DNA of 64,000 nucleotides from Cladosporium halotolerans (lineage: Eukaryota), in assembly GCF_011745625.1 (NCBI RefSeq), contig NW_027191452.1:1054001-1118000 (forward strand). The letters run 5' to 3'. How positions within the stretch are numbered: position 1 is the first letter of the stretch; each line of letters begins with the position of its first letter. Shown here piece after piece: positions 11,866 through 40,190 of this stretch. The notes below the pieces were generated by a model. The model ran no database searches and was not told the origin of the DNA. It saw only the letters and a list, made by a program, of their open reading frames with translations. The position numbers and the translations under genes are program-made.

Positions 11866-12948
11866 TCACCTCCCCGACATGACTCTAATGTGCTCGGCCC
11901 CGACCTTGTCCGCTTCCCCGTTGAGAGCTTTAATCTCGGCGTCGACGTAAGGAATTCCATCACTCTTCCTGGTCTGCTCGGCTATCTGCTCGATTTCTCC
12001 GGGGAAGTAGATCCGGTCGACGCCCGCCATCTTGTCGCAGGAGACGACTCTCTGATACAAGTAGTCCATGCGTTCCTTGAACTCGTCCATGCTCATGAAC
12101 AGGTCCGGTTTGAGAGCGATGAGGAAGTGACCTACGTCCGCCGGCTTCGAAGGGTCGTATGGGTTCGTGACATGTCCTGCGAAGGCACTGCCCGAGAGCA
12201 CGCCGGAGAAGACATCCATCATCACAGACAGCGCGCTGCCTTTCGGCCCTCCCATAGGCAGCATGACACCCTTCAGCGCCTCAGCCGGGTCATCTGTCTG
12301 CTTTCCTTCGGCATCAAGCGCCCAGTCGCCCGGGATCTTCTCACCCCTCCGCAGAGCCTTATAGATCTTGCCCCGCGCCGCCACAGAGGGCGCCATGTCC
12401 AGAATGAACGGCGGCTTCTCCCCGCCCGGCGCACCACACGCCAACGGCGAGACTCCCATGAGCTTCTCCTTGCCGCCCCAAACAGGCAGCGCTGGGCTGG
12501 AGTTCGTAAAGACAAGACTCATCATGCCCTCGTCCAAAGCCTGCTGCACCAGCCACGCCGACATGCCGAAGTGGTTGCTGTGCTTGACGCTGACCATGCC
12601 TATGCCGTAGACCCGCGCCATCTCGCACGCCTTCTGCATGCCCATGTGCGCCGCGACGAAGCCGAACGAGTTGTGCGCGTCGACCTGGCCGATGACGGGC
12701 GTCGTTTCGGTGAGCGTCGGTTGGGCTTTGGCGTCCAGGACGCCCTGGCGGATGCGGGCCATGTAGGACGGGATGCGGTTGATGCCGTGCGTGTCGACGC
12801 CGCGAAGGTCGGCTGCTACGAGGCATTTGGCGACGATGGCGGAGTGCTCTTTTGAGACGCCGTTGCCTTCGAGGACGGATTGGACGAAGGTGGTGGCGTC
12901 CGAGGGGGACACGTGGTGTTTGGTCGATTCTTGTGTTGGGGCTGCCAT
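11866..12948 (-). CDS. Ldh_2-family (malate/L-lactate/sulfolactate-type) NAD(P)-dependent dehydrogenase, intronless
   Basis: ADLRGVDTHG, HSNHFG, LDMAPS, GGPKGSAL, YFPGE. Likely start MAAPTQ at 12948. Confidence 0.9.
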   Translation of the reverse strand: MAAPTQESTKHHVSPSDATTFVQSVLEGNGVSKEHSAIVAKCLVAADLRGVDTHGINRIPSYMARIRQGVLDAKAQPTLTETTPVIGQVDAHNSFGFVAAHMGMQKACEMARVYGIGMVSVKHSNHFGMSAWLVQQALDEGMMSLVFTNSSPALPVWGGKEKLMGVSPLACGAPGGEKPPFILDMAPSVAARGKIYKALRRGEKIPGDWALDAEGKQTDDPAEALKGVMLPMGGPKGSALSVMMDVFSGVLSGSAFAGHVTNPYDPSKPADVGHFLIALKPDLFMSMDEFKERMDYLYQRVVSCDKMAGVDRIYFPGEIEQIAEQTRKSDGIPYVDAEIKALNGEADKVGAEHIRVMSGR

Positions 12949-19650: not shown

Positions 19651-20740
19651 GATGAGATTAGGCGGTAGTATCCAAACTATGAATATGGCGTTGGAGTTGC
19701 TGGTTGATGGTTCGGCAAGAGGTATCAGTCGTAGGTAACTCTAAGGTATACTCACTAAGACTATCTGTGGCCACCATCAGTCGCCGGATGGTCGCATGAT
19801 ACCAGCAACTCAGCCTCGCTTCAGCCCCAACGCCATGATTGGCCCCATGTCGCACAACAGGCGTAGGATGGAGGCACAGGAGGAGATGTCTCCGCCCGGG
19901 GTCACCGGATTGAGCCATTTCACAGGCGTTTATCGCCGTGTGATGCCGCCATCGGCGTCTGGCTATCGAAATTATGCAGGCCCGTCAGGGGGCACTCCGC
20001 CATGCATGCCGCCGTGTAAGAGAGGCTGCGTGCCTCAGGTCGAGACCGGCAACTTCCTTGACTTTGCTCTCATGACACTTATCGTGCTTGCAGATTCCGC
20101 ACCCTCAGATGATATCTGACGCCGATGTTTGTTCAGCTCGATTGCCGATCGAGTGGGACAGTTCGTAAGCTGCGTGGATTGAAGGGCGTCGGAGGATGTT
20201 GTGAAGCGCCGTGCTCGGCAACCAACTCCAAAAAGGGCCGGGTGGCGCACGCTGACCTCTCCCTTTGGGGCATCGCTTCGAACAAGCGACAGCGCATCAC
20301 CAACGGTCATCGAGTTGTGTTTCGACGACGAGCTGTGCGAAAACACAGGCCATGAATATGTCATTCAGCTGCGCCCGGAACGACACCGATAGTGGCGCCA
20401 GAGACAGTGGCTCCATGGCGTGAGGCAAGTTATAGCATCTGCATTATGGGCCCAAAACAGACGCCTGTCGGAATCGCCGGCGACCCTATGGCGCCCTCAT
20501 GCAGGCAGAGAGAGTGGCTTGGGGCCATGTGCCTGAAGCGTTCGGGAATATGCAGGCCGGCATAGTGCTCTCAGGTAAGGCGAAAACCAACACCGGCTGC
20601 ATCCCCGATATGTACAAAGAAGCTCTAAATCGTGGCTCAATCCTCTCAAGACTGCTGTGCGCACGCGAGACCTCTTCAATAACGCTATGGTGCGATACGG
20701 CTTTACACGCTTGAAAGATCGTTTGGTTGACAGCGACACG

Positions 20741-23056
20741 ATGAGTAACGGTGCCATGGAGCCAGTTGCGCAAACTACCGGTGGTTCAGAAAAGACACAG
20801 GAGCCAAAGCAGCAAGTGGATCAACGCGCATTCAGAGATGGTTACGAGCCAGCAGAAGGCGACGTGTTTATCGCCGTTCTTGGAGTAACTGGAGCCGGCA
20901 AAAGTACCTTCATCTCGAAATGCACGGAGAAAGAAGTGAGCATAGGGCACAACCTACAAGCGTGTACGCAAGAGGTCGGAGTTTTTCTCTGCAAATCTCG
21001 AGACTTCAACATTTACCTTGTCGATACGCCTGGCTTTGACGACACTGATCGATCGGACACGGAGGTAAGGTGGTAGCGATTTCTTCAACATGGATGTATC
21101 GTCAAACACGATTCGCTTTCCTCGTGTGGAATTTGTCGGGAGTGTTTGAGTCAGCCCATCGCTGACCTGTTCATGTCTTTAAGGTTCTCAAGGAGATCGC
21201 ATCCTGGCTTACTGCATCCTACTCAAACTCCATCAAACTCCATGGCATTATCTATCTTCACCGGATCACAGATCCCCGCATGCAAGGCTCCGGCATGCGT
21301 AATTTGCACATGTTCAAACGCCTTTGTGGTGACCAGAATCTGGCAAACGTCGTGATGGCGACCTGCCAATGGGAACGAGTCCTGGAAGCAGATGGCGTCG
21401 AACGCGAAAGACAGCTCAAGGAAACGCACAACTTCTGGGGCTATATGGTTGAACGTGGCAGTAAGATCCATCGTCATTACAACAATCGCGAATCCGCCCT
21501 TCGATTGATCGACAGCTTGGTCAGTGGCAACACCGCCAGACCAAAGATTGTTCTCGATATCCAGGCGCAGATGGTAGATGAGGGCAAAGATCTCGCCGAC
21601 ACAGCAGCTGGTCAAGCAGTTGACGATGCGATCGCCAAAGAGCGGCAGCGTTTCGCCAAACAAATTGCTGAATCGCAAGCTGATCTGAGGGAGGCTCTCG
21701 CTTCTCGGGACCGCGAGACTGCCGATATCCTAAGGCAGCACCAAGATGAAATGAATGAACGCGTCCGTAAGCTCGACAAAGAACACTCGGCTTTGCAAGT
21801 CAGTCTGGAACGATTGCAAGAAGAGCGCTTTGCGAAAATGAAGAAAGCCTTGGAAGATGCTGAGAAGGTCAGCGCCGAGGCCAGGCAGATGATGGAAATG
21901 GCGAAAAAAGAGCAGGCACAAAACAAGAAAGCCTTGTTGGACCAGATCAGGGCCAAGGACGCTGCAGAGGCAAAGCACAAGAAGGAAATGGCCGAGCTGC
22001 AGGCCAAAGTTGAGGCGCTGCAAACCCCGAGTGCGAAACCGGCAGAGAAGCCGAAGGAATATGCGATAGCCCTTTTCGATTTCTCAGGCGAGACACTAGG
22101 CGACCTTGCCTTCAAGAAAGGCGACCGCATTCGCATCATCACAAAAAGTGAGAACGTGAATGAATGGTGGACTGGCGAATTACATGGAAAGATCGGACTT
22201 TTCCCTGCAAACTACACAACAATCGACACAGATGAACCGCCGCCGACCCCGACGAAAGCTGGCTCCGTGTCTTCACAAAAGTCACGAGTGAGGTCACCTC
22301 CGGGCATCAACAGCCTCATACTCTGGCCGTGCAGTCTCAGCCTATGGGCGGAGAAGTTCTTCTTCGTTGCCTACACTTCAGACCTGTATGGGAACTTACC
22401 AAAAGACTTCCCCATTGATCGCAAAGCCGATAACAACGGCAACCGTTGCATTATCTTCGGGGAAGGCGATTCATACTACATACACTACCATGACGCTCTC
22501 ATGCAGTGCTGGACGCAGCGGAGCGACGACTTCCTCAAACACTACCCGGAAGCTGAGAAGTACCTTACAGCGTATGAGCAGTTTGGCTGTCCACAATGCG
22601 TGTCTCTCGGTAGCAACTCCCAGTACTTCATCAGGACGGCGTGGGGCGCTTCATACAACATTCCCAAAGACGCTGAGACTTATCTCGGCAACATGGCGCT
22701 GGTAGAGAACTTCTGGTTCGGCAAGAATGGTGCTTGGGTGGCGACGAAGTATGACGGTAGTAGGTGCTGGGATCTCAAGGGACAGTATCCTGGACTCATT
22801 GAAAGGATCAGGACTGGCATAAATGGGGAGACAAGGATCTCGGTGAGTATTTATCGAACGAAGATGTCGACAGGCCAAGCTGACAACTAACTTCATCAAG
22901 ACACTCGCGATGAATCCCAAAGACGATACTCAATGGGTTCTGCTTTGGAAGAACGGACTGGCCGCATACAACATCGGCACACAATACCCTATCGATTCTT
23001 TCGAGATCGAAGAATTTTTCACCAAGAATTTTGGTTGCACGTGGGCTAATAAGTGA
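20741..23056 (+). CDS. AIG1/GIMAP-like P-loop GTPase B fused to coiled coil, SH3 and a C-terminal repeat domain
   Basis: G1 GVTGAGKS, G3 DTPGFDD, GIIYLHRITDPRM; SH3 ALFDF..LAFKKGD..WW.G..GLFPANY. Introns 21065-21183 and 22843-22900; last exon ends ...GCTWANK*. Confidence 0.85.
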
Positions 23057-23599: not shown

Positions 23600-23833
23600 A
23601 TGTGCATGAAACAGATCTGCCCCACTTGCTGTAGGCTCTCACCCATCCATCATGGTCCAGCACCCCTAAAAGAAACCCGCTAACGCGTCACAGCCAAGCA
23701 ATCCTGGTTCGGATGCGGTGCCCATATCCCTAGGGTTATGGACTCTATCCCGCAGGGAGAGTGGTGCCAGTGTGCACCCAAAGTCACCGTTGATGGAAAG
23801 GAATACCCGCCTAAAGCTGGAACTGCAAGCTAG
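23600..23833 (+). CDS. 56-aa Cys/His-rich microprotein (spliced, absent from the ORF track)
   Basis: Exons 23600-23630 and 23694-23833, with intron GTAGGC..GCTAAC..CAG. Product MCMKQICPTCSKQSWFGCGAHIPRVMDSIPQGEWCQCAPKVTVDGKEYPPKAGTAS; ATG in AAAAATG context. Confidence 0.8.
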
Positions 23834-24000
23834 ATGACGAACGGTACGCCTCTTCATGCAACACGGCTTTTCTTTTGCTAAATCACCCTTTCCAGAACAT
23901 CACCTAAACATACATTCAGCTTGAAAATGCAGTCGACATCTGTGCTCTCAGTTACTCCTTGCGTGTCCTCGTATTGGCTTCATCAACAGCTCGGTTATCC

Positions 24001-25023
24001 TCACCACTGAAGCTCTTTCGACTGCGTAGACCCGCAGCCTCCCTCCTGAGCTTCTTTGCTCCAGTCATACAGTCCACCCCTCTTGACAAAAGCGTCCTGA
24101 TCCCACTTCACCTCATCAAGCGCTTTGGCTACACCAACGTCAAGAATAGAGCTCGACTGCTTCTCTTTCCCCTTTCCCTTGTCCAAAAAGCACATGTATT
24201 CATCCAAGATAAGATAGCTGGAGGCCATGATCTCGTTTGGCTCCGGAATTAAAGAAGGCAAGTGTCTGTGCTTCGCACAGAAAGCCTCGTACTCTTCGTC
24301 ACTAATCAGAAGGCCTTTGGCGTCTCGCTTGCGCTTGTCATTCTCGGTGTCGGCGGTATTGGCGTCGTTCTCGTCTTCTACGAACAAAACTTGAAAACAT
24401 TTCCAGCGCTGAGGATCAAGCTCCTCGACGATCGCCGCCATGTCTTCCTGCCAGTTGTACTTGCAGACGACAGTGTTGAGCTTGAACTTGATCCCGAGCT
24501 TGCGGCACCAGTCACGGATGCGGAAAAGCTGCTCGACGTTTTTGCCAGTGCCACGACCAATGGCTATGTTGGTCTCCTCGTTGAAGCTGTCACAAGACAC
24601 GCCCATCACATCGACAAACTCGCCATACTTGTCAAGCCAGCGCTCAGTCAGCTTTGTGCCGTTCGTGATGATAGAGACGCTCTCCAGTCCCAGGCCCTGC
24701 TTGCAGAACTGGCACAGCCAACCGAGCTTCTCGGGATATAGGAAAGGCTCGCCGCCGGCGAAGTTGATCTTGCGCATTCCGGCCTTCTTGAGGAGCGTGA
24801 GGCCGCGCATCATTTCTTTTTTGGTGGCAACATGCGAGGTTTTCTCGGTGTGGAAGCAGAACTTGCAGGTCTTGTTGCATTTGCGGGTGAAGTGGTAATT
24901 GACTGAGACGGGTTTGGTGGTAAGCTTTCTGACATAAAAGATGTAGGCACTAATAGCGAGCAGGACCAGACAGATGATGGCCTGGCCCATGGTGGAAGTT
25001 TTCAATAATTGTGTAAGAGCCAT
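24001..25023 (-). CDS. RSAD2: Viperin (radical SAM ddhNTP synthase), intronless
   Basis: SVNYHFTRKCNKTCKFCFHT, KINFAGGEPF, VSCDSF..TN..IGRG, FKLNTVV, RWKCFQ, SYLILDEYM, SILDVG, F.KRGG.Y.WSK, terminal Trp; hydrophobic N-terminal segment. Confidence 0.96.
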   Translation of the reverse strand: MALTQLLKTSTMGQAIICLVLLAISAYIFYVRKLTTKPVSVNYHFTRKCNKTCKFCFHTEKTSHVATKKEMMRGLTLLKKAGMRKINFAGGEPFLYPEKLGWLCQFCKQGLGLESVSIITNGTKLTERWLDKYGEFVDVMGVSCDSFNEETNIAIGRGTGKNVEQLFRIRDWCRKLGIKFKLNTVVCKYNWQEDMAAIVEELDPQRWKCFQVLFVEDENDANTADTENDKRKRDAKGLLISDEEYEAFCAKHRHLPSLIPEPNEIMASSYLILDEYMCFLDKGKGKEKQSSSILDVGVAKALDEVKWDQDAFVKRGGLYDWSKEAQEGGCGSTQSKELQW

Positions 25024-25528
25024 CTTGATTGTAGCGTGACGGGGTCGTTGGTTGTATCAGGATCAAGAGTGTGCGACCAGCTTATATGGATCGTCTTCGT
25101 ACTAGTTTGCTAAGCCTTGTGTGCCTAAGACATTGTTGCTTTATTGTCTGCGGCAATCAATCAGTCCAACAGACAAGAAGCAGGTTTCACAAACGTTTGG
25201 CCACTTTCAGTAGCCTGCTACGAGCGAAATGATCAATTATTGGCTTCAAAAGATGCTTTTCCTCATTCACTTGCAGATTATGTCTCAACGACATCGACTC
25301 TGCTGCACAATTCTATGGATCACAACTCGAAGGCCACAACCCGCCACGCCTCGTCAGTCGTCCGACTTCACTTGCTTAAAGAAGTGATTCACTTTCTTTT
25401 CTCAACACACTGGTGAAGAGTCTCACAAGGATACGTGCAATGTTTCAACACCTTGACAACTTGCGCCTATATCAAGGCTGTCTACGGCCAAACAGTAAAA
25501 GATTTCCACGACAACAGAATACACAACA
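25024..25528. promoter_or_regulatory. Probable bidirectional promoter shared by viperin and the NMP kinase
   Basis: 505-bp spacer between divergent ATGs, with TATA-like elements about 60 nt upstream of each start (CATATAAG on - near 25085; TATATC on + near 25468). Confidence 0.5.
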
Positions 25529-26218
25529 ATGTCTACAGCTACAAACTCGCCACCTGGCGCCTCCACAACCAAACAGCCATCCATAATCTACATCCTCGGC
25601 GCGCCAGGCGCAGGTAAAGGCACCCTGTGCTCCTACCTCACGCAACACTACGCCAACGTCTACCACCTCTCGATCGGCGACCACCTCCGTAGCCTCCTCG
25701 CTCTCCAAACAGCAGAAGCATCCCAACAGCTCCTCGGCGGCTTGTCGCAACAGGACTTCGCAGCCCGCATGCAGCGCCGCGAGCTCCTCCCCGCCTCGAC
25801 CATCGTCGCAATCACCCGCGCCGCGATCGACTCCATCGTCCCCCAAGCCTCCGCTGCCGGGCATCAAGACTCCATCATCCTGCTCGACGGCTTCCCGCGC
25901 TCGATAGAGAGCGCCCGGCTCGCGGACGCTGTGTTCGGGCTGCCGAGCTGGGTGTTCCTGTTCGACTGTCCGCGGGAGCTTGCGGCGGACCGCTTTCTTA
26001 GGCGCAGGCGCTCGACGGACGACGATATTGGGGTGTTTGGGAAGCGGTTCGAGGAGTTTGAGAGAGTGAACGGGGAGATTTTGGGGCTTTATCGTGATAG
26101 AGTTGTGGTTTTTGACACGACCATGGCGTTTGAGAAGACGTGGGAGGAGATGGAGACCTTCGATGGGTACTTGACGCAGCTGGGTGCGGTGGAAGTGGAG
26201 AATGGGATCGATGGGTAG
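25529..26218 (+). CDS. Adenylate/UMP-CMP kinase-family nucleoside monophosphate kinase (short LID), intronless
   Basis: ILGAPGAGKGT P-loop, HLSIGDHLR, LLDGFPRS, RFLRRRRSTDD. Confidence 0.9.
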   Translation: MSTATNSPPGASTTKQPSIIYILGAPGAGKGTLCSYLTQHYANVYHLSIGDHLRSLLALQTAEASQQLLGGLSQQDFAARMQRRELLPASTIVAITRAAIDSIVPQASAAGHQDSIILLDGFPRSIESARLADAVFGLPSWVFLFDCPRELAADRFLRRRRSTDDDIGVFGKRFEEFERVNGEILGLYRDRVVVFDTTMAFEKTWEEMETFDGYLTQLGAVEVENGIDG

Positions 26219-26455: not shown

Positions 26456-28351
26456 TTACTCGTTCTCGCGCACATCGATGACGGTCGACTTGAACTTCCT
26501 GGCCGGCACTCTGCGGTTGAACAGAATGTCCAACTCGCGGTAAGAGCGGTGCTTGAACTCGGGCAGGAAGAAGTAAGCGCTGACCCAGCAGACGAGCGCA
26601 GTGCCGCCCCAAACGTAGCCACACTTGCCGGCCATGTTCCAGCCGGTCGGGTTGAGCATCTGTGAAGCCAGGAAGATCATGGGGATCTCGGCCACGTAGT
26701 ATGCGCCACGGCCGACACCAGTGCTTAGGGCACGTAGACGGACCGAGGAGGCCTCGGCGATGATCGAGTAGGAAATCGGGCCCATGGCGCCGGCGTAGAC
26801 GAAAGAAATGAGCACACCAAAAACAGCCTGGGCATAATTGGTTGCCGAGTTCTGCTGGATAGATGCACAGATGCCGAGAAGGATCAGGAAAGTGACGTTG
26901 ACCGCTGTGCCCCAAAGATAGATAGTACGACGGCCGCACCAGGCAGTGAGGAACCAAGATCCGATGTTGGCGATCAGTCCAAGACAGCTGTTGATCAGAC
27001 CGAGCTGAAAGGAGAAGTTGGTGTCCATACCGGCTTCTGTGAATTGTTAGTCGATACCTCCCTCGCACAGTATTACGGATCACGGGTTACTTACGCTCGA
27101 AGAAGAACGTCGCCTGGTTAGCGATGAGGTTGCCGGCAAAATTCTGTGAAGCGTACATTAAGCAAGTGATGATGGTTCGCCTCAGATCAGTGCCCTTGAA
27201 CAAGTCGAGCAGAGTAGGGTTGCCACCGAGTTTCGCTTCAATCTCGACTGTACGCTCGATCATGGCGAGCTTGTCTTGAGAGTCGTGCTTGTCGCCAAGG
27301 CGCTCGATGGACCGAAGAGCTTCGTCCCTGCGACCCTTGCGGGTGAGCCACCAGGGACTCTCAGGAGCGAAGAAAAGGAGGACAAGAAGCGGTGTCTAGA
27401 CCTGAGTTAGCGATGGGCTAATGTGCACTGTAAGGAAGAAACCCACGGGAAAGATCCATTGAAGCGCAAGTGGCATTCTCCAGGCCCACTCGTCGAGACG
27501 CTGGTTGTAGGCGTAGCAAACACCAGCCACAAGTATACCACCAATGGACCAACTCATCTGCAAGGTAGCCGTGCAAACACTTCTGAGCGCGAGCGGGACA
27601 ACCTCACTAGCGTAGGCGGGAGAGTTCGCGATGAAGATGCCCCATGGAACGCCCTCGAACGCCTGGCCGATGACGAGGACCTCGAGGGAGTCGGCCTAGA
27701 AGTCTACAGTCAGTGTCTGGGCGGGTGGAAAAGGATTCACAAAACACTCACAAAGAAGGAGATGAAGATAGTTGCGTTCATGAGTACCAGGCCCAAAATG
27801 GTGGTCCAGCGATAACCCAGCCATGTAGTAATCGGACCAGCCAAGAACACCCCAACGAAGGCACCACATTGTCCAGCTTGAAAGAGTGAAGACTGCCATT
27901 TGGTTTCGATGGCATACACGGGGTCCTCGCCAGGCTCCGAGATCAGCACACCATATTTCTCTTTGAAGTGTGGAAGAGCTACGAAGTTACCGTTAAGGAA
28001 CATATCGAATGACTCCATAACGATGGTAAAGCACATGATCTAGGGTGGAGCGTGAATCAGCTACCTGCATAGGGTTTGAGAAAAAGTGGCGACCTCCGCA
28101 ATTGAGCATCGAAGAACCTGGGGTATTGCGGAGCAGCACTGCTTGTTGAAACTTACGAAAGCCCACATGCAAGCCATCTTGTGGCTCTTGATGGCCTCCC
28201 AAACGGTCTCCTGGTGTTCGGCATTTTCACCCTCGAAGGCGTTGCTCATGAGATCCTTGTTGACCAGGACATCGGAGTGGAGAGTGTTCTTCTCCTCGAG
28301 GGCCTCCACTTCGACATCATTGCGCTTCGGTTCGACGCCGGTCGACGACAT
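26456..28351 (-). CDS. MFS maltose/alpha-glucoside permease-like sugar porter, multi-exon
   Basis: MESFD, W.GYR, PESPWWL, CGRRTIYLWG, EASSVRLRA, PEFKHRSYRELDILF. Confidence 0.9.
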
Positions 28352-39341: not shown

Positions 39342-40190
39342 ATGATGCACCAGTTCTCCGGTGCTTCTTTTGCGGGCAGCAACAACGTTACGCCCTCTCA
39401 GCGTCAAGGCTCAGACCCCAGCGCCTCCTTCGGAATGGACGGTCGGCCCGAGAGCAGCAGCGAAGCGCACTCGAGCCGGGGAGACCACAGCAATCCGCAA
39501 GACTCTTCCCAGGGTGGGAAGAAGAAGCGGCGGGTCGAGACCAAGTGTCTCCAGTGCCAGCACCGCAAAGTTGAGTGTTCGGGCACGCGGCCTGCCTGTG
39601 ATGTCTGCAAGGAGCGAAATCTGAAGTGTGCCTGGACCGGACCAATCGGGCAAAAAGCGCTGCTGCAGGTGAGAAGCGCCTGCAAGCAATGCCACCACAG
39701 GAAGGCCAAGTGCTCAGGTGAGCGACCGACCTGCCGGAGCTGCCGCGAGCGCCACCAGACGTGCGAGTGGAACGTCGAAGAAGGCGTGACCCGGATGGAG
39801 GACCTGAAGCGAAAGCTCAAGGAGGCGACCGAGCAGCCGCAAGACCTCAACCGGCTGATAGAAGCGATGCGCAGTGGCTCAGACAACGAGTCTAGCATGC
39901 TGCTGGCGCGCTTGCGCGTCGGCCATTCGATCGATGATATTGTCAGCTCATTACCGATGGACTCGACACCATCTAGCGGAGACGAAAGGCGACCTTCCAC
40001 GACTGACGGTACGATATCAGCCAAGAGTTCTTTCAGCGGTAAAAGCTCGCTAAGTGGTAGGTCCAAAATCCGAGAAATGCGATGCCGTACAGTATTGACC
40101 GACGCGCCATGTGACACAGGCTTTCCCGCGGATACAGCCTCCAAGAATGACTCTCCTTTGGAACACCCTTTTTACAGATTTCAGTCTTGA
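39342..40190 (+). CDS. Transcription factor with two tandem Zn(II)2Cys6 clusters
   Basis: CLQCQHRKVECSGTRPACDVCKERNLKC and CKQCHHRKAKCSGERPTCRSCRERHQTC. The 3' exon structure is uncertain. Confidence 0.85.
   Translation: MMHQFSGASFAGSNNVTPSQRQGSDPSASFGMDGRPESSSEAHSSRGDHSNPQDSSQGGKKKRRVETKCLQCQHRKVECSGTRPACDVCKERNLKCAWTGPIGQKALLQVRSACKQCHHRKAKCSGERPTCRSCRERHQTCEWNVEEGVTRMEDLKRKLKEATEQPQDLNRLIEAMRSGSDNESSMLLARLRVGHSIDDIVSSLPMDSTPSSGDERRPSTTDGTISAKSSFSGKSSLSGRSKIREMRCRTVLTDAPCDTGFPADTASKNDSPLEHPFYRFQS

What the first reader, a model, noticed from the sequence alone, without database searches (positions are those of the whole stretch)
24001..26218. Viperin head-to-head with an NMP kinase, paralleling vertebrate RSAD2-CMPK2
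Seen: intronless viperin (-) and an intronless ADK/UMP-CMP-family kinase (+) whose ATGs are separated by 505 bp. Known: vertebrate RSAD2 is divergent from and co-induced with CMPK2, a thymidylate-kinase-type enzyme, and some prokaryotic viperins are linked to nucleotide kinases. Inference: this fungus recruited a different kinase family into the same architecture, which would be convergent evolution of a ddhNTP-producing module. Viperin-kinase linkage in fungi may already be noted in comparative surveys.
Basis: partly seen in the sequence, partly recalled or inferred. Interest (0 to 1): 0.85.

Follow-up and report, generated by a model that had tools for sequence, protein, structure and literature searches.

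The report
Fungal viperin paired with dedicated nucleotide kinase
A Cladosporium-like fungus carries the antiviral enzyme viperin back-to-back with its own highly diverged nucleotide kinase; the pair is real and conserved, but this kind of fungal pairing has already been described in print.

Summary
There is a 340-aa viperin ORF at 24001-25023 (-) and a 229-aa NMP kinase ORF at 25529-26218 (+), head-to-head across a 505-bp spacer, and both ORFs are uninterrupted.

The kinase is a short AK1/UMP-CMP-type enzyme (Pfam ADK). It is not thymidylate-kinase/CMPK2-type and not a URA6 orthologue:
- It scores 69.6 bits on the UMP-CMP model (cutoff 207.6).
- It scores 70.9 bits against yeast URA6, where a canonical relative scores 263.8.
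- It lies outside the canonical clade in my tree.

The same head-to-head pair recurs on two other fungal metagenome contigs. L002 has 51% kinase and 72% viperin identity. L005, Exophiala-like, has 33% and 52%.

Shomar et al. [quoted passage not shown] They call the fungal ones CMPK1-type and convergent, and tie them to ddhUTP production.

New minor points:
- This kinase lineage is separate from the Trichoderma and Exophiala ones.
- An invariant Lys sits at the base-selecting position of the viperin.
- The 8-mer AGCAAACT is shared by all the spacers.
- A spliced convergent transcript overlaps the viperin 3' half.

No function was tested.

The parts
24001..25023 (-). Viperin CDS, 340 aa plus stop, no intron
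   Evidence: ORF. NF038283 scores 260.1 bits against a cutoff of 180. PDB viperins match at E 5e-114 to 2e-91.
24931..24987 (-). N-terminal hydrophobic helix of the viperin, residues 13-31 (GQAIICLVLLAISAYIFYV). Probable membrane or lipid-droplet anchor.
   Evidence: Translation checked. It lies before the part that aligns to solved viperin cores. The anchor role is inferred from eukaryotic viperin N-tails discussed by Shomar et al..
24856..24879 (-). Radical-SAM cluster motif CNKTCKFC (CxxxCxxC), residues 49-56
   Evidence: C49 and C56 are invariant and C53 nearly invariant in 34 fungal viperins.
24745..24762 (-). FAGGEP SAM-binding (GGE) motif, residues 88-93
   Evidence: These residues are invariant in alignment A2.
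24148..24189 (-). Beta-8 loop of the nucleobase pocket, FLDKGKGKEKQSSS. Lys282 aligns with the Arg of the FLDRN loop of T. virens viperin.
   Evidence: Alignments to 7n7i and 9dfw. K282 is invariant in 34 of 34 sequences. The role of this position comes from Shomar et al. section 5. That this Arg is their Arg257 is my inference from loop position.
25024..25528 (.). 505-bp divergent intergenic spacer, the presumed shared promoter region. GC 0.45.
   Evidence: Promoter function is inferred, not tested.
25104..25111 (-). AGCAAACT, an 8-mer shared by all the viperin-kinase spacers examined. Candidate cis-element.
25529..26218 (+). Diverged short NMP kinase CDS, 229 aa plus stop, no intron
   Evidence: ORF. 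PF00406 scores 60.8 bits. AF2 model pLDDT 86.3. Foldseek matches AK1 and UMP/CMP kinases at TM about 0.8.
25598..25624 (+). P-loop GAPGAGKGT, residues 24-32
   Evidence: G24, P26, G27 and K30 are invariant in A1.
25691..25777 (+). NMP-binding region carrying a lineage-specific insertion: about 9 extra residues relative to yeast URA6 and 11 relative to the Trichoderma-type kinases
   Evidence: Alignments. It is a loop at residues 59-73 in the model.
25886..25900 (+). DGFPR motif (residues 120-124), followed by Ser128 where yeast URA6 and the canonical kinase L044 have Gln
   Evidence: That this position contacts the base is recalled, not tested.
25991..26026 (+). Short LID segment RFLRRRRSTDDD with conserved Arg155, Arg159 and Asp165. 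There is no long-form LID insert.

Best explanation
This is a two-gene nucleotide-analogue module of a Cladosporium-like ascomycete.

The viperin is membrane-anchored by an N-terminal helix. It is a radical-SAM dehydratase that converts a pyrimidine NTP into the chain-terminating 3'-deoxy-3',4'-didehydro-NTP. The substrate is most likely UTP, possibly also CTP.

The divergently transcribed neighbour is a dedicated, fast-evolving short NMP kinase of the AK1/UMP-CMP superfamily. It is additional to the housekeeping URA6. By analogy with CMPK2 it raises the local UDP/CDP supply, and hence the UTP/CTP supply, when the module is switched on. The 505-bp spacer would serve both genes as a shared promoter.

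Shown here:
- gene identities
- intact catalytic motifs
- the kinase's non-orthology to URA6
- conservation of the head-to-head pair in two other fungal lineages

Inferred: substrate, product, the kinase's role, co-regulation, and an antiviral purpose.
For: Viperin:
- NF038283 scores 260.1 bits against a cutoff of 180.
- It aligns to T. virens viperin 7n7i at E 1.7e-112.
- CxxxCxxC and GGE motifs are present.

Kinase:
- The P-loop, R54, DGFPR, LID arginines and R173 are conserved in 27 of 27 aligned relatives.
- It has a confident NMP-kinase fold.
- Its best solved match is yeast uridylate kinase 1uky, E 1e-18.

Not URA6:
- TIGR01359 scores 69.6 bits against a cutoff of 207.6.
- A canonical metagenomic UMP-CMP kinase (L044) scores 263.8 bits on 1uky and is 27% identical to the window kinase.
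- In a 100-row tree the canonical clade (33 rows, SH-aLRT 99) excludes the window clade (20 rows, SH-aLRT 97).

Pairing:
- Of 80 loci fetched with the kinase alignment, tblastn finds a viperin in 2 (L002 and L005). In both it sits head-to-head just upstream of the kinase.
- Two kinase/viperin database pairs share a longest-contig length: P0008/P0083 at 53451 and P0007/P0184 at 4978.

Literature: Shomar et al. detected ddhUTP from two fungal viperins and report the linkage to CMPK1-type kinases.

Shared 8-mer in the spacers.
Against: - No whole genome is held, so I could not show that a canonical URA6 exists in this organism.
- Two related kinase loci have at least 3.3 kb of upstream sequence and no viperin. 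L004 is 42% identical and its reading frame is broken. L007 is a kinase domain inside a 1611-codon open frame.
- Cladosporium fusiforme has a 73%-identical viperin but no kinase hit appeared.
- The base-contact position after DGFPR is Ser rather than Gln, so pyrimidine specificity is not assured.
- The viperin pocket has Lys rather than the Arg (UTP-type) or Cys/Lys (CTP-type) residues described, so the product is a prediction.
- RNA contigs cannot show co-regulation.
Confidence: 0.72

Rival explanations
1. The kinase does not feed substrate to the viperin. Instead it works on the product side. It would be specialised to re-phosphorylate ddhUMP/ddhCMP, or to handle another base, so keeping the analogue in the active triphosphate pool.
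For: Human CMPK1 is about 82-fold less efficient on ddhCMP than on CMP (PMC10436258, passages read), so a housekeeping enzyme is a poor recycler. The window clade has a conserved insertion in the NMP-binding region and Ser at the position where URA6 has Gln. It is far more diverged from canonical kinases than a simple extra copy would need to be.
Against: There is no direct evidence. Divergence can equally reflect relaxed or arms-race selection. The vertebrate precedent (CMPK2) is described as substrate supply (Shomar et al.).
Confidence: 0.13
2. The module is real but not antiviral in fungi. The ddh-nucleotide or nucleoside would serve metabolic regulation or antagonism of competitors.
For: My search for 'viperin' plus 'mycovirus' returned 6 papers. 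Judged from their listings alone, none concerns a fungal viperin acting on a mycovirus. A fungal viperin product has been reported to inhibit NAD-dependent enzymes, as cited in PMC10436258.
Against: The chemistry and the kinase linkage are conserved with systems shown to be antiviral in animals and bacteria (Shomar et al.). The viperin differs much more between Cladosporium species (73%) than a nearby housekeeping enzyme does (92%), as immune genes often do.
Confidence: 0.1
3. The kinase is simply the housekeeping URA6/ADK and its adjacency to the viperin is incidental.
For: Its best solved match is yeast URA6. The genome could not be searched for another copy.
Against: It scores 69.6 bits against the 207.6-bit family cutoff. 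It scores 70.9 bits on URA6 where a canonical kinase scores 263.8. It falls outside the canonical clade. The same neighbourhood recurs in two other lineages with kinases of different clades.
Confidence: 0.03

Closest known systems
Fungal viperin with neighbouring CMPK1-type NMP kinase (Shomar et al. 2023, bioRxiv 10.1101/2023.09.13.557418; T. virens viperin, PDB 7N7I)
   Same: It is a eukaryotic distal-clade viperin next to a short NMP kinase that is not CMPK2-type. The viperin core aligns to 7n7i at E 1.7e-112.
   Different: The window kinase is only 32-36% identical to the Trichoderma kinases and forms a separate starred clade. It scores 69.6 bits on TIGR01359, against 126-130 for the Trichoderma ones. 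The viperin pocket has an invariant Lys where T. virens has Arg. Whether the Trichoderma proteins I used are the viperin neighbours could not be checked, because I had no fungal genome context. The paper text does not mention orientation or promoter.
Vertebrate RSAD2-CMPK2 pair
   Same: Viperin sits beside a nucleotide monophosphate kinase, presumably co-regulated, with the kinase thought to supply the NTP substrate (as summarised by Shomar et al.). The divergent orientation in vertebrates is recalled, not checked.
   Different: CMPK2 is thymidylate-kinase-type. The window kinase scores 18.8 bits on PF02223, below the cutoff of 27. I saw no mitochondrial-type N-terminal domain: the 17 N-terminal residues are disordered in the model. 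There is no interferon system in fungi.
Prokaryotic viperins (pVips) with adjacent nucleotide kinases
   Same: The window viperin passes the NF038283 model. Kinase linkage is reported for 12% of bacterial and 5% of archaeal viperins (Shomar et al.).
   Different: Those are operons, mostly with CMPK2-related kinases. Here there is a eukaryotic divergent gene pair, a eukaryote-type N-terminal helix, and a different kinase family.
Yeast uridylate kinase URA6 / human CMPK1 (UMP-CMP kinase family, TIGR01359)
   Same: Same fold and catalytic motifs. URA6 is the best solved sequence match, with Foldseek target-normalised TM 0.81.
   Different: The window kinase is about 27% identical to a canonical member. 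It scores 69.6 bits against a cutoff of 207.6. It has an insertion in the NMP-binding region and a LID three residues shorter. It lies outside the canonical clade.

Membership tests
Viperin (radical-SAM ddhNTP synthase) | Passes a curated viperin family model | tested here: met
   NF038283 scores 260.1 bits against a cutoff of 180. The vertebrate 'exception' model TIGR04278 scores 354.4 bits, below its cutoff of 450.
Viperin (radical-SAM ddhNTP synthase) | CxxxCxxC [4Fe-4S] motif and GGE SAM-binding motif | tested here: met
   CNKTCKFC at residues 49-56 and FAGGEP at residues 88-93. Both are conserved in A2.
Viperin (radical-SAM ddhNTP synthase) | Viperin-specific C-terminal extension that closes the NTP pocket, aligned through to the last residue | tested here: met
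   The alignment to six solved viperin-like chains runs to residue 340 and ends in the shared terminal Trp.
Viperin (radical-SAM ddhNTP synthase) | Described base-selecting residues of the beta-8 loop (mouse Cys314/Lys319 for CTP, T. virens Arg257 for UTP, or Asn for promiscuous) | tested here: inconclusive
   The window has Lys282 at the position aligned with the Arg of the T. virens FLDRN loop. I take that Arg to be Arg257 because of its loop position. Lys282 is invariant in 34 of 34 clade members. This is none of the three residues named in the text of Shomar et al.. The variants in their supplementary figures could not be seen.
Viperin (radical-SAM ddhNTP synthase) | Makes a 3'-deoxy-3',4'-didehydro-NTP | not testable with these tools
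   Needs expression and LC-MS.
Short NMP kinase (Pfam ADK PF00406; AK1/UMP-CMP type) | Family model, P-loop, NMP-binding Arg, DGFPR, LID arginines | tested here: met
   PF00406 scores 60.8 bits against a cutoff of 26.8. G24, P26, G27, K30, R54, D120-P123, R155, R159 and R173 are invariant in 27 sequences.
Short NMP kinase (Pfam ADK PF00406; AK1/UMP-CMP type) | NMP-kinase fold without the long LID insert | tested here: met
   AF2 pLDDT 86.3 and pTM 0.83. Top Foldseek hits are AK1, AK5 and UMP/CMP kinases at target-normalised TM 0.77-0.84. Long-form adenylate kinases align only to about residue 161.
URA6/CMPK1 orthologue (UMP-CMP kinase family TIGR01359) | Reaches the curated family cutoff and groups with canonical members | tested here: not met
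   It scores 69.6 bits against 207.6. 29 of 50 metagenomic kinase ORFs reach the cutoff, but 0 of the 55 nearest relatives or representatives do. The canonical clade excludes it.
URA6/CMPK1 orthologue (UMP-CMP kinase family TIGR01359) | Is the only such kinase in the genome | not testable with these tools
   No genome is held for this window.
CMPK2 / thymidylate-kinase family (PF02223) | Passes the thymidylate kinase model | tested here: not met
   PF02223 scores 18.8 bits against a cutoff of 27. TIGR00041 scores 17.5 bits against a cutoff of 83.25.
Conserved viperin-kinase gene pair | The same adjacency and orientation in independent genomes | tested here: met
   L002 and L005 are head-to-head. 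Among the seven loci L001-L007: 2 are paired, 3 are uninformative because the contig ends less than 450 bp upstream (L001, L003, L006), and 2 lack a viperin (L004, L007).
Bidirectional (shared) promoter | Co-regulation of both genes from the spacer | not testable with these tools
   There are only hints: a shared 8-mer and low-depth RNA contigs on both genes in one run.

The most novel reading that the evidence does not exclude
The window-type kinase is a distinct, fast-evolving lineage of 'viperin kinases'. Its remodelled NMP-binding site is adapted to ddh-nucleotides, recycling ddhUMP/ddhCMP that housekeeping kinases handle poorly. The pair is switched on through a conserved AGCAAACT element bound by a dedicated factor. 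Together this would amount to an inducible, interferon-independent antiviral regulon in filamentous fungi.
Probability: 0.1. Interest if true: 0.7.

Novelty: new member of a known kind. Interest (0 to 1): 0.3.

Why it matters
Viperin with a partner kinase is one of the few immune modules kept by genetic linkage from bacteria to humans. Fungi are the case where the partner kinase was replaced by another family. This locus is a clean, intronless, compact example in a common airborne mould. It is easy to clone for testing three things: whether the replacement kinase really boosts ddhUTP/ddhCTP, what base the Lys-type pocket selects, and whether fungi induce the pair on virus infection. The general idea is published, so the value is as a test case and for the small additions, not as a discovery.

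Tried and rejected
- **Whole-genome search for a second UMP-CMP kinase.** No genome is held, so the 'sole URA6' test stays open.
- **Complex prediction, viperin 36-340 with kinase 14-215.** The verdict was 'no answer', score 0.00, with controls not run. This is evidence neither way.
- **Tree references.** The best 150 of the 1.84-billion-protein representative search were mostly multi-domain adenylate-kinase repeat proteins. None of the 47 single-domain ones reached a curated family cutoff, so they could not act as labelled URA6/ADK references. I took canonical UMP-CMP kinases from metagenome loci instead. No long-form ADK1 or CMPK2 sequence was available to me, so the tree has neither and is unrooted. 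Whether the three fungal kinase lineages share one origin is unresolved (backbone support 78-83).
- **PDB entries 9DFU, 9DFW, 9DGW, 9DFN.** No paper was found in the library, so their organisms and ligands are unknown to me.
- **Pfam on the small convergent gene's second exon and on the C-terminal part of the upstream GTPase-SH3 protein.** Nothing significant.
- **Uncovered parts in RNA runs.** No X22 contig lies on 24920-25434, and X23 and X24 cover little. These gaps are not evidence of silence.
- **Earlier notes of this scan.** There was nothing for this genome. The 8 viperin notes returned were all prokaryotic and did not bear on this locus.
- **ISRE resemblance.** A vertebrate ISRE-like look of CACTTTCTTTTC in the spacer was considered and dropped as a chance resemblance. 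Only AAAGAAAG is shared with the other spacers, and that is low-complexity.
Full report
**What is there.** With the standard code and ATG starts, one search lists a 340-aa ORF at 24001..25023 on the minus strand and a 229-aa ORF at 25529..26218 on the plus strand. The 505 bases 25024-25528 separate the two start codons.

The minus-strand protein passes NCBIfam's viperin family model: NF038283 scores 260.1 bits against a cutoff of 180. The vertebrate-centred TIGR04278 scores 354.4 bits, below its cutoff of 450. The protein aligns from residue 29/36 to its last residue with six solved viperin-like enzymes at E <= 1e-100, among them T. virens 7n7i. It has the CNKTCKFC cluster motif, the FAGGEP motif, a hydrophobic N-terminal helix and the terminal Trp.

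The plus-strand protein is a Pfam ADK member (60.8 bits). It scores only 18.8 bits on the thymidylate-kinase model that would fit CMPK2, whose cutoff is 27. Neither ORF needs an intron. The alignments are continuous, and RNA-type contigs show no joint inside either CDS while showing spliced joints in both flanking genes.

**Which organism.** No genome is held for the window. A fungal Zn2Cys6 domain lies at 39342-40187. The Ldh_2 enzyme at 11869-12948 is 92% identical to Cladosporium fusiforme's and 90% to C. allicinum's. The window therefore comes from a Cladosporium or a close relative. In one search, parts of the stretch are held by runs labelled as air, dust and urban metagenomes. I laid only X21-X24, so I make no habitat claim.

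**What kind of kinase.**
- All catalytic landmarks are invariant across 27 aligned relatives: P-loop GAPGAGKGT, Arg54, DGFPR, LID Arg155/Arg159, Arg173.
- The AlphaFold model is confident (pLDDT 86.3). It matches short NMP kinases (AK1, AK5, Dictyostelium and yeast UMP/CMP kinases) at target-normalised TM 0.77-0.84.
- By sequence the best solved match is yeast uridylate kinase 1uky, at 70.9 bits, E 1e-18.
- It is not a URA6 orthologue. It scores 69.6 bits on TIGR01359 against a cutoff of 207.6.
- A canonical metagenomic UMP-CMP kinase (L044) scores 263.8 bits on 1uky and is only 27% identical to the window protein.
- None of the 55 nearest single-domain relatives or representatives reaches the TIGR01359 cutoff. 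The best is 180.8 bits and the Trichoderma proteins score 126-130.
- By contrast, 29 of 50 kinase ORFs from the more distant metagenome loci do reach it.

I built a 100-row IQ-TREE 'quick' tree using 27 of those 29 ORFs. L027 was left out as a near-duplicate of L026, and L060 because it is truncated. In that tree:
- the canonical clade (33 rows, SH-aLRT 99) excludes the window clade (20 rows, 97);
- it also excludes an Exophiala-type clade (5 rows, 100) and a Trichoderma-type clade (6 rows, 99);
- the backbone between these three is weak (78-83);
- the tree has no ADK1 or CMPK2 rows and is unrooted.

One origin versus several origins for the fungal lineages is therefore open.

Relative to URA6, the window clade carries about nine extra residues in the NMP-binding region and a LID three residues shorter. 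It has Ser where URA6 has Gln four residues after DGFPR. That this position touches the base is my recollection, not a test.

**Is the pairing conserved?** I scanned metagenome contigs with the kinase alignment and received 80 loci. tblastn with the window viperin hits 2 of the 80.
- **L002** has 51% kinase and 72% viperin identity. The viperin ends its N-terminus about 490 bp upstream of the kinase ATG, on the opposite strand.
- **L005** has 33% kinase identity, with an acidic tail like the Exophiala aquamarina protein P0026, and 52% viperin identity. The layout is the same with a spacer of about 800 bp.

Among the seven closest loci (L001-L007):
- two are paired;
- three are uninformative because the contig ends 168-438 bp upstream of the kinase match (L001, L003, L006);
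- two have at least 3.3 kb upstream without a viperin. These are L004 (42% identity, reading frame broken, contig ends within the kinase) and L007 (a kinase domain within a 1611-codon open frame).

There is also indirect evidence. Two kinase hits and two viperin hits share the same longest-contig length: P0008/P0083 at 53451 and P0007/P0184 at 4978.

Against a universal pairing, C. fusiforme has a 73% viperin but no kinase from it appeared. That search finds only proteins that share exact 5-residue words with the query.

**What is already known.** Shomar et al. 2023 (bioRxiv 10.1101/2023.09.13.557418) is the key source. I read passages and section 5. The paper:
[quoted passage not shown] - shows that the T. 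virens and an Aspergillus viperin make mainly ddhUTP.

The paper text does not mention orientation, promoter, Cladosporium or mycoviruses. My search for 'viperin' plus 'mycovirus' listed six papers, and judged from their listings alone none concerns a fungal viperin.

**The viperin pocket.** Shomar et al. name mouse Cys314/Lys319 (CTP), T. virens Arg257 (UTP) and an Asn (promiscuous) in the beta-8 loop. In the alignments, the T. virens loop reads FLDRNGQQ and the window reads FLDKGKGKEKQ. I take the Arg of FLDRN to be Arg257 because of its loop position. The chain numbering differs by a tag, which I could not verify. The window's Lys282 at that position is invariant in 34 of 34 fungal relatives, including those of L002 and L005. 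The solved but, to my searches, unpublished 9dfu/9dfn chains also have Lys there. A Lys could hydrogen-bond the uracil O4 as the Arg does, so I predict UTP preference. This is inference.

**The spacer.** The window, L002 and L005 spacers share three 8-mers, against 0.21 expected from shuffles. One of them, AGCAAACT, occurs once in the window spacer (25104-25111, minus strand) and twice each in the L002, L005 and L001 spacers. It occurs nowhere else in those three loci. Background counts:
- 3 in the whole 64-kb window, against 2.07 expected;
- 8 in 560,661 bases of the other 76 loci.

None of 1000 first-order Markov resamples gave a three-way shared 8-mer with five or more copies in total, and 24 of 1000 gave three or more shared 8-mers. 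The motif was found post hoc. It rests on three lineages, and L001 is a close relative of L002. I treat it as a candidate element only.

**RNA.** I laid 4 of the 24 listed runs.
- X21 behaves like DNA. It covers introns and the spacer without joints.
- X22 and X24 carry spliced joints, so they hold RNA.
- In X22, contigs lie on the viperin CDS at 24605-24919 (depth 2.66) and across the kinase start at 25435-25578 (depth 2).

Contig depth is a poor measure, and the strand cannot be read from contigs.

Two plus-strand GT..AG introns, 23631-23693 and 23844-23895, both with CTAA-type branch sites, define a small spliced plus-strand gene. Its ATG is at 23600 and its stop at 23831-23833, giving about 56 aa, rich in Cys. 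Its contigs run on into the viperin CDS, to 24560 in X22 (depth 176) and to 24308 in X24. Either its 3' UTR overlaps the viperin's 3' half in antisense, or the assembler merged two convergent overlapping transcripts.

**Mechanism and verdict.** The best reading (0.72) is the published one. The viperin is a membrane-anchored ddhUTP/ddhCTP synthase. Its partner is a dedicated, non-housekeeping pyrimidine NMP kinase expressed from a common divergent promoter to sustain substrate supply.

A product-side role for the kinase is a live alternative (0.13). It is prompted by the 82-fold handicap of human CMPK1 on ddhCMP (PMC10436258) and by the remodelled NMP site. A non-antiviral use of the product (0.10) and incidental adjacency of a housekeeping kinase (0.03) are less likely.

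The complex prediction gave no answer and is recorded only under Tried and rejected.

The finding is real and tidy, but it is a new member of a described kind. The new details are the distinct kinase lineage, the Lys-type pocket, the shared 8-mer and the convergent transcript. I score interest at 0.3.

Noticed in passing
window 23600-24560 (+): A small spliced plus-strand gene. ATG at 23600, intron 23631-23693, stop at 23831-23833, and a second intron at 23844-23895 after the stop. The product is about 56 aa, Cys-rich, with no Pfam hit for exon 2. Its RNA contigs continue into the viperin CDS, to 24560 in X22 (depth 176) and to 24308 in X24. This means either a convergent overlap or an antisense transcript over the viperin 3' half.
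   Followed up: partly
window 25104-25111; L002 spacer positions 194 and 288; L005 spacer positions 221 and 514; L001 positions 137 and 234: The 8-mer AGCAAACT recurs in every viperin-kinase spacer examined and nowhere else in those loci. 0 of 1000 resamples matched this. It is a candidate shared cis-element, found post hoc from three lineages.
   Followed up: partly
window 24001-25023 versus 11869-12948: The viperin is only 73% identical to the best Cladosporium fusiforme protein, while the nearby Ldh_2 enzyme is 92% identical to that species' copy. Both C. fusiforme proteins report the same 3.44-Mb contig. So the viperin is either evolving fast or is not orthologous. No C. fusiforme kinase appeared among the kinase hits.
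   Followed up: no
window 20687-22890 (+): The upstream neighbour is a GTPase (MMR_HSR1-type G domain in a first exon-like ORF) followed by a coiled coil, an SH3 domain and a 230-aa tail with no family match. It is not a neighbour of the viperin in L002 or L005.
   Followed up: partly
window 24340-24360 (viperin residues about 222-228): A 7-residue acidic insertion (NTADTEN) relative to all solved viperins. It is shared by the fungal clade in alignment A2.
   Followed up: no
L004 3371-3983: A 42%-identical relative of the kinase whose reading frame shifts after the P-loop, with no viperin in the 3.3 kb upstream. It is either a decaying unpaired copy or an assembly error.
   Followed up: partly
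window 26456-28036 (-); L002 3543-5452 (+): A sugar (MFS) transporter gene lies next to the pair in both the window (beyond the kinase, intron 27037-27094 confirmed by RNA) and L002 (beyond the viperin). This may be coincidence or a remnant of synteny.
   Followed up: no
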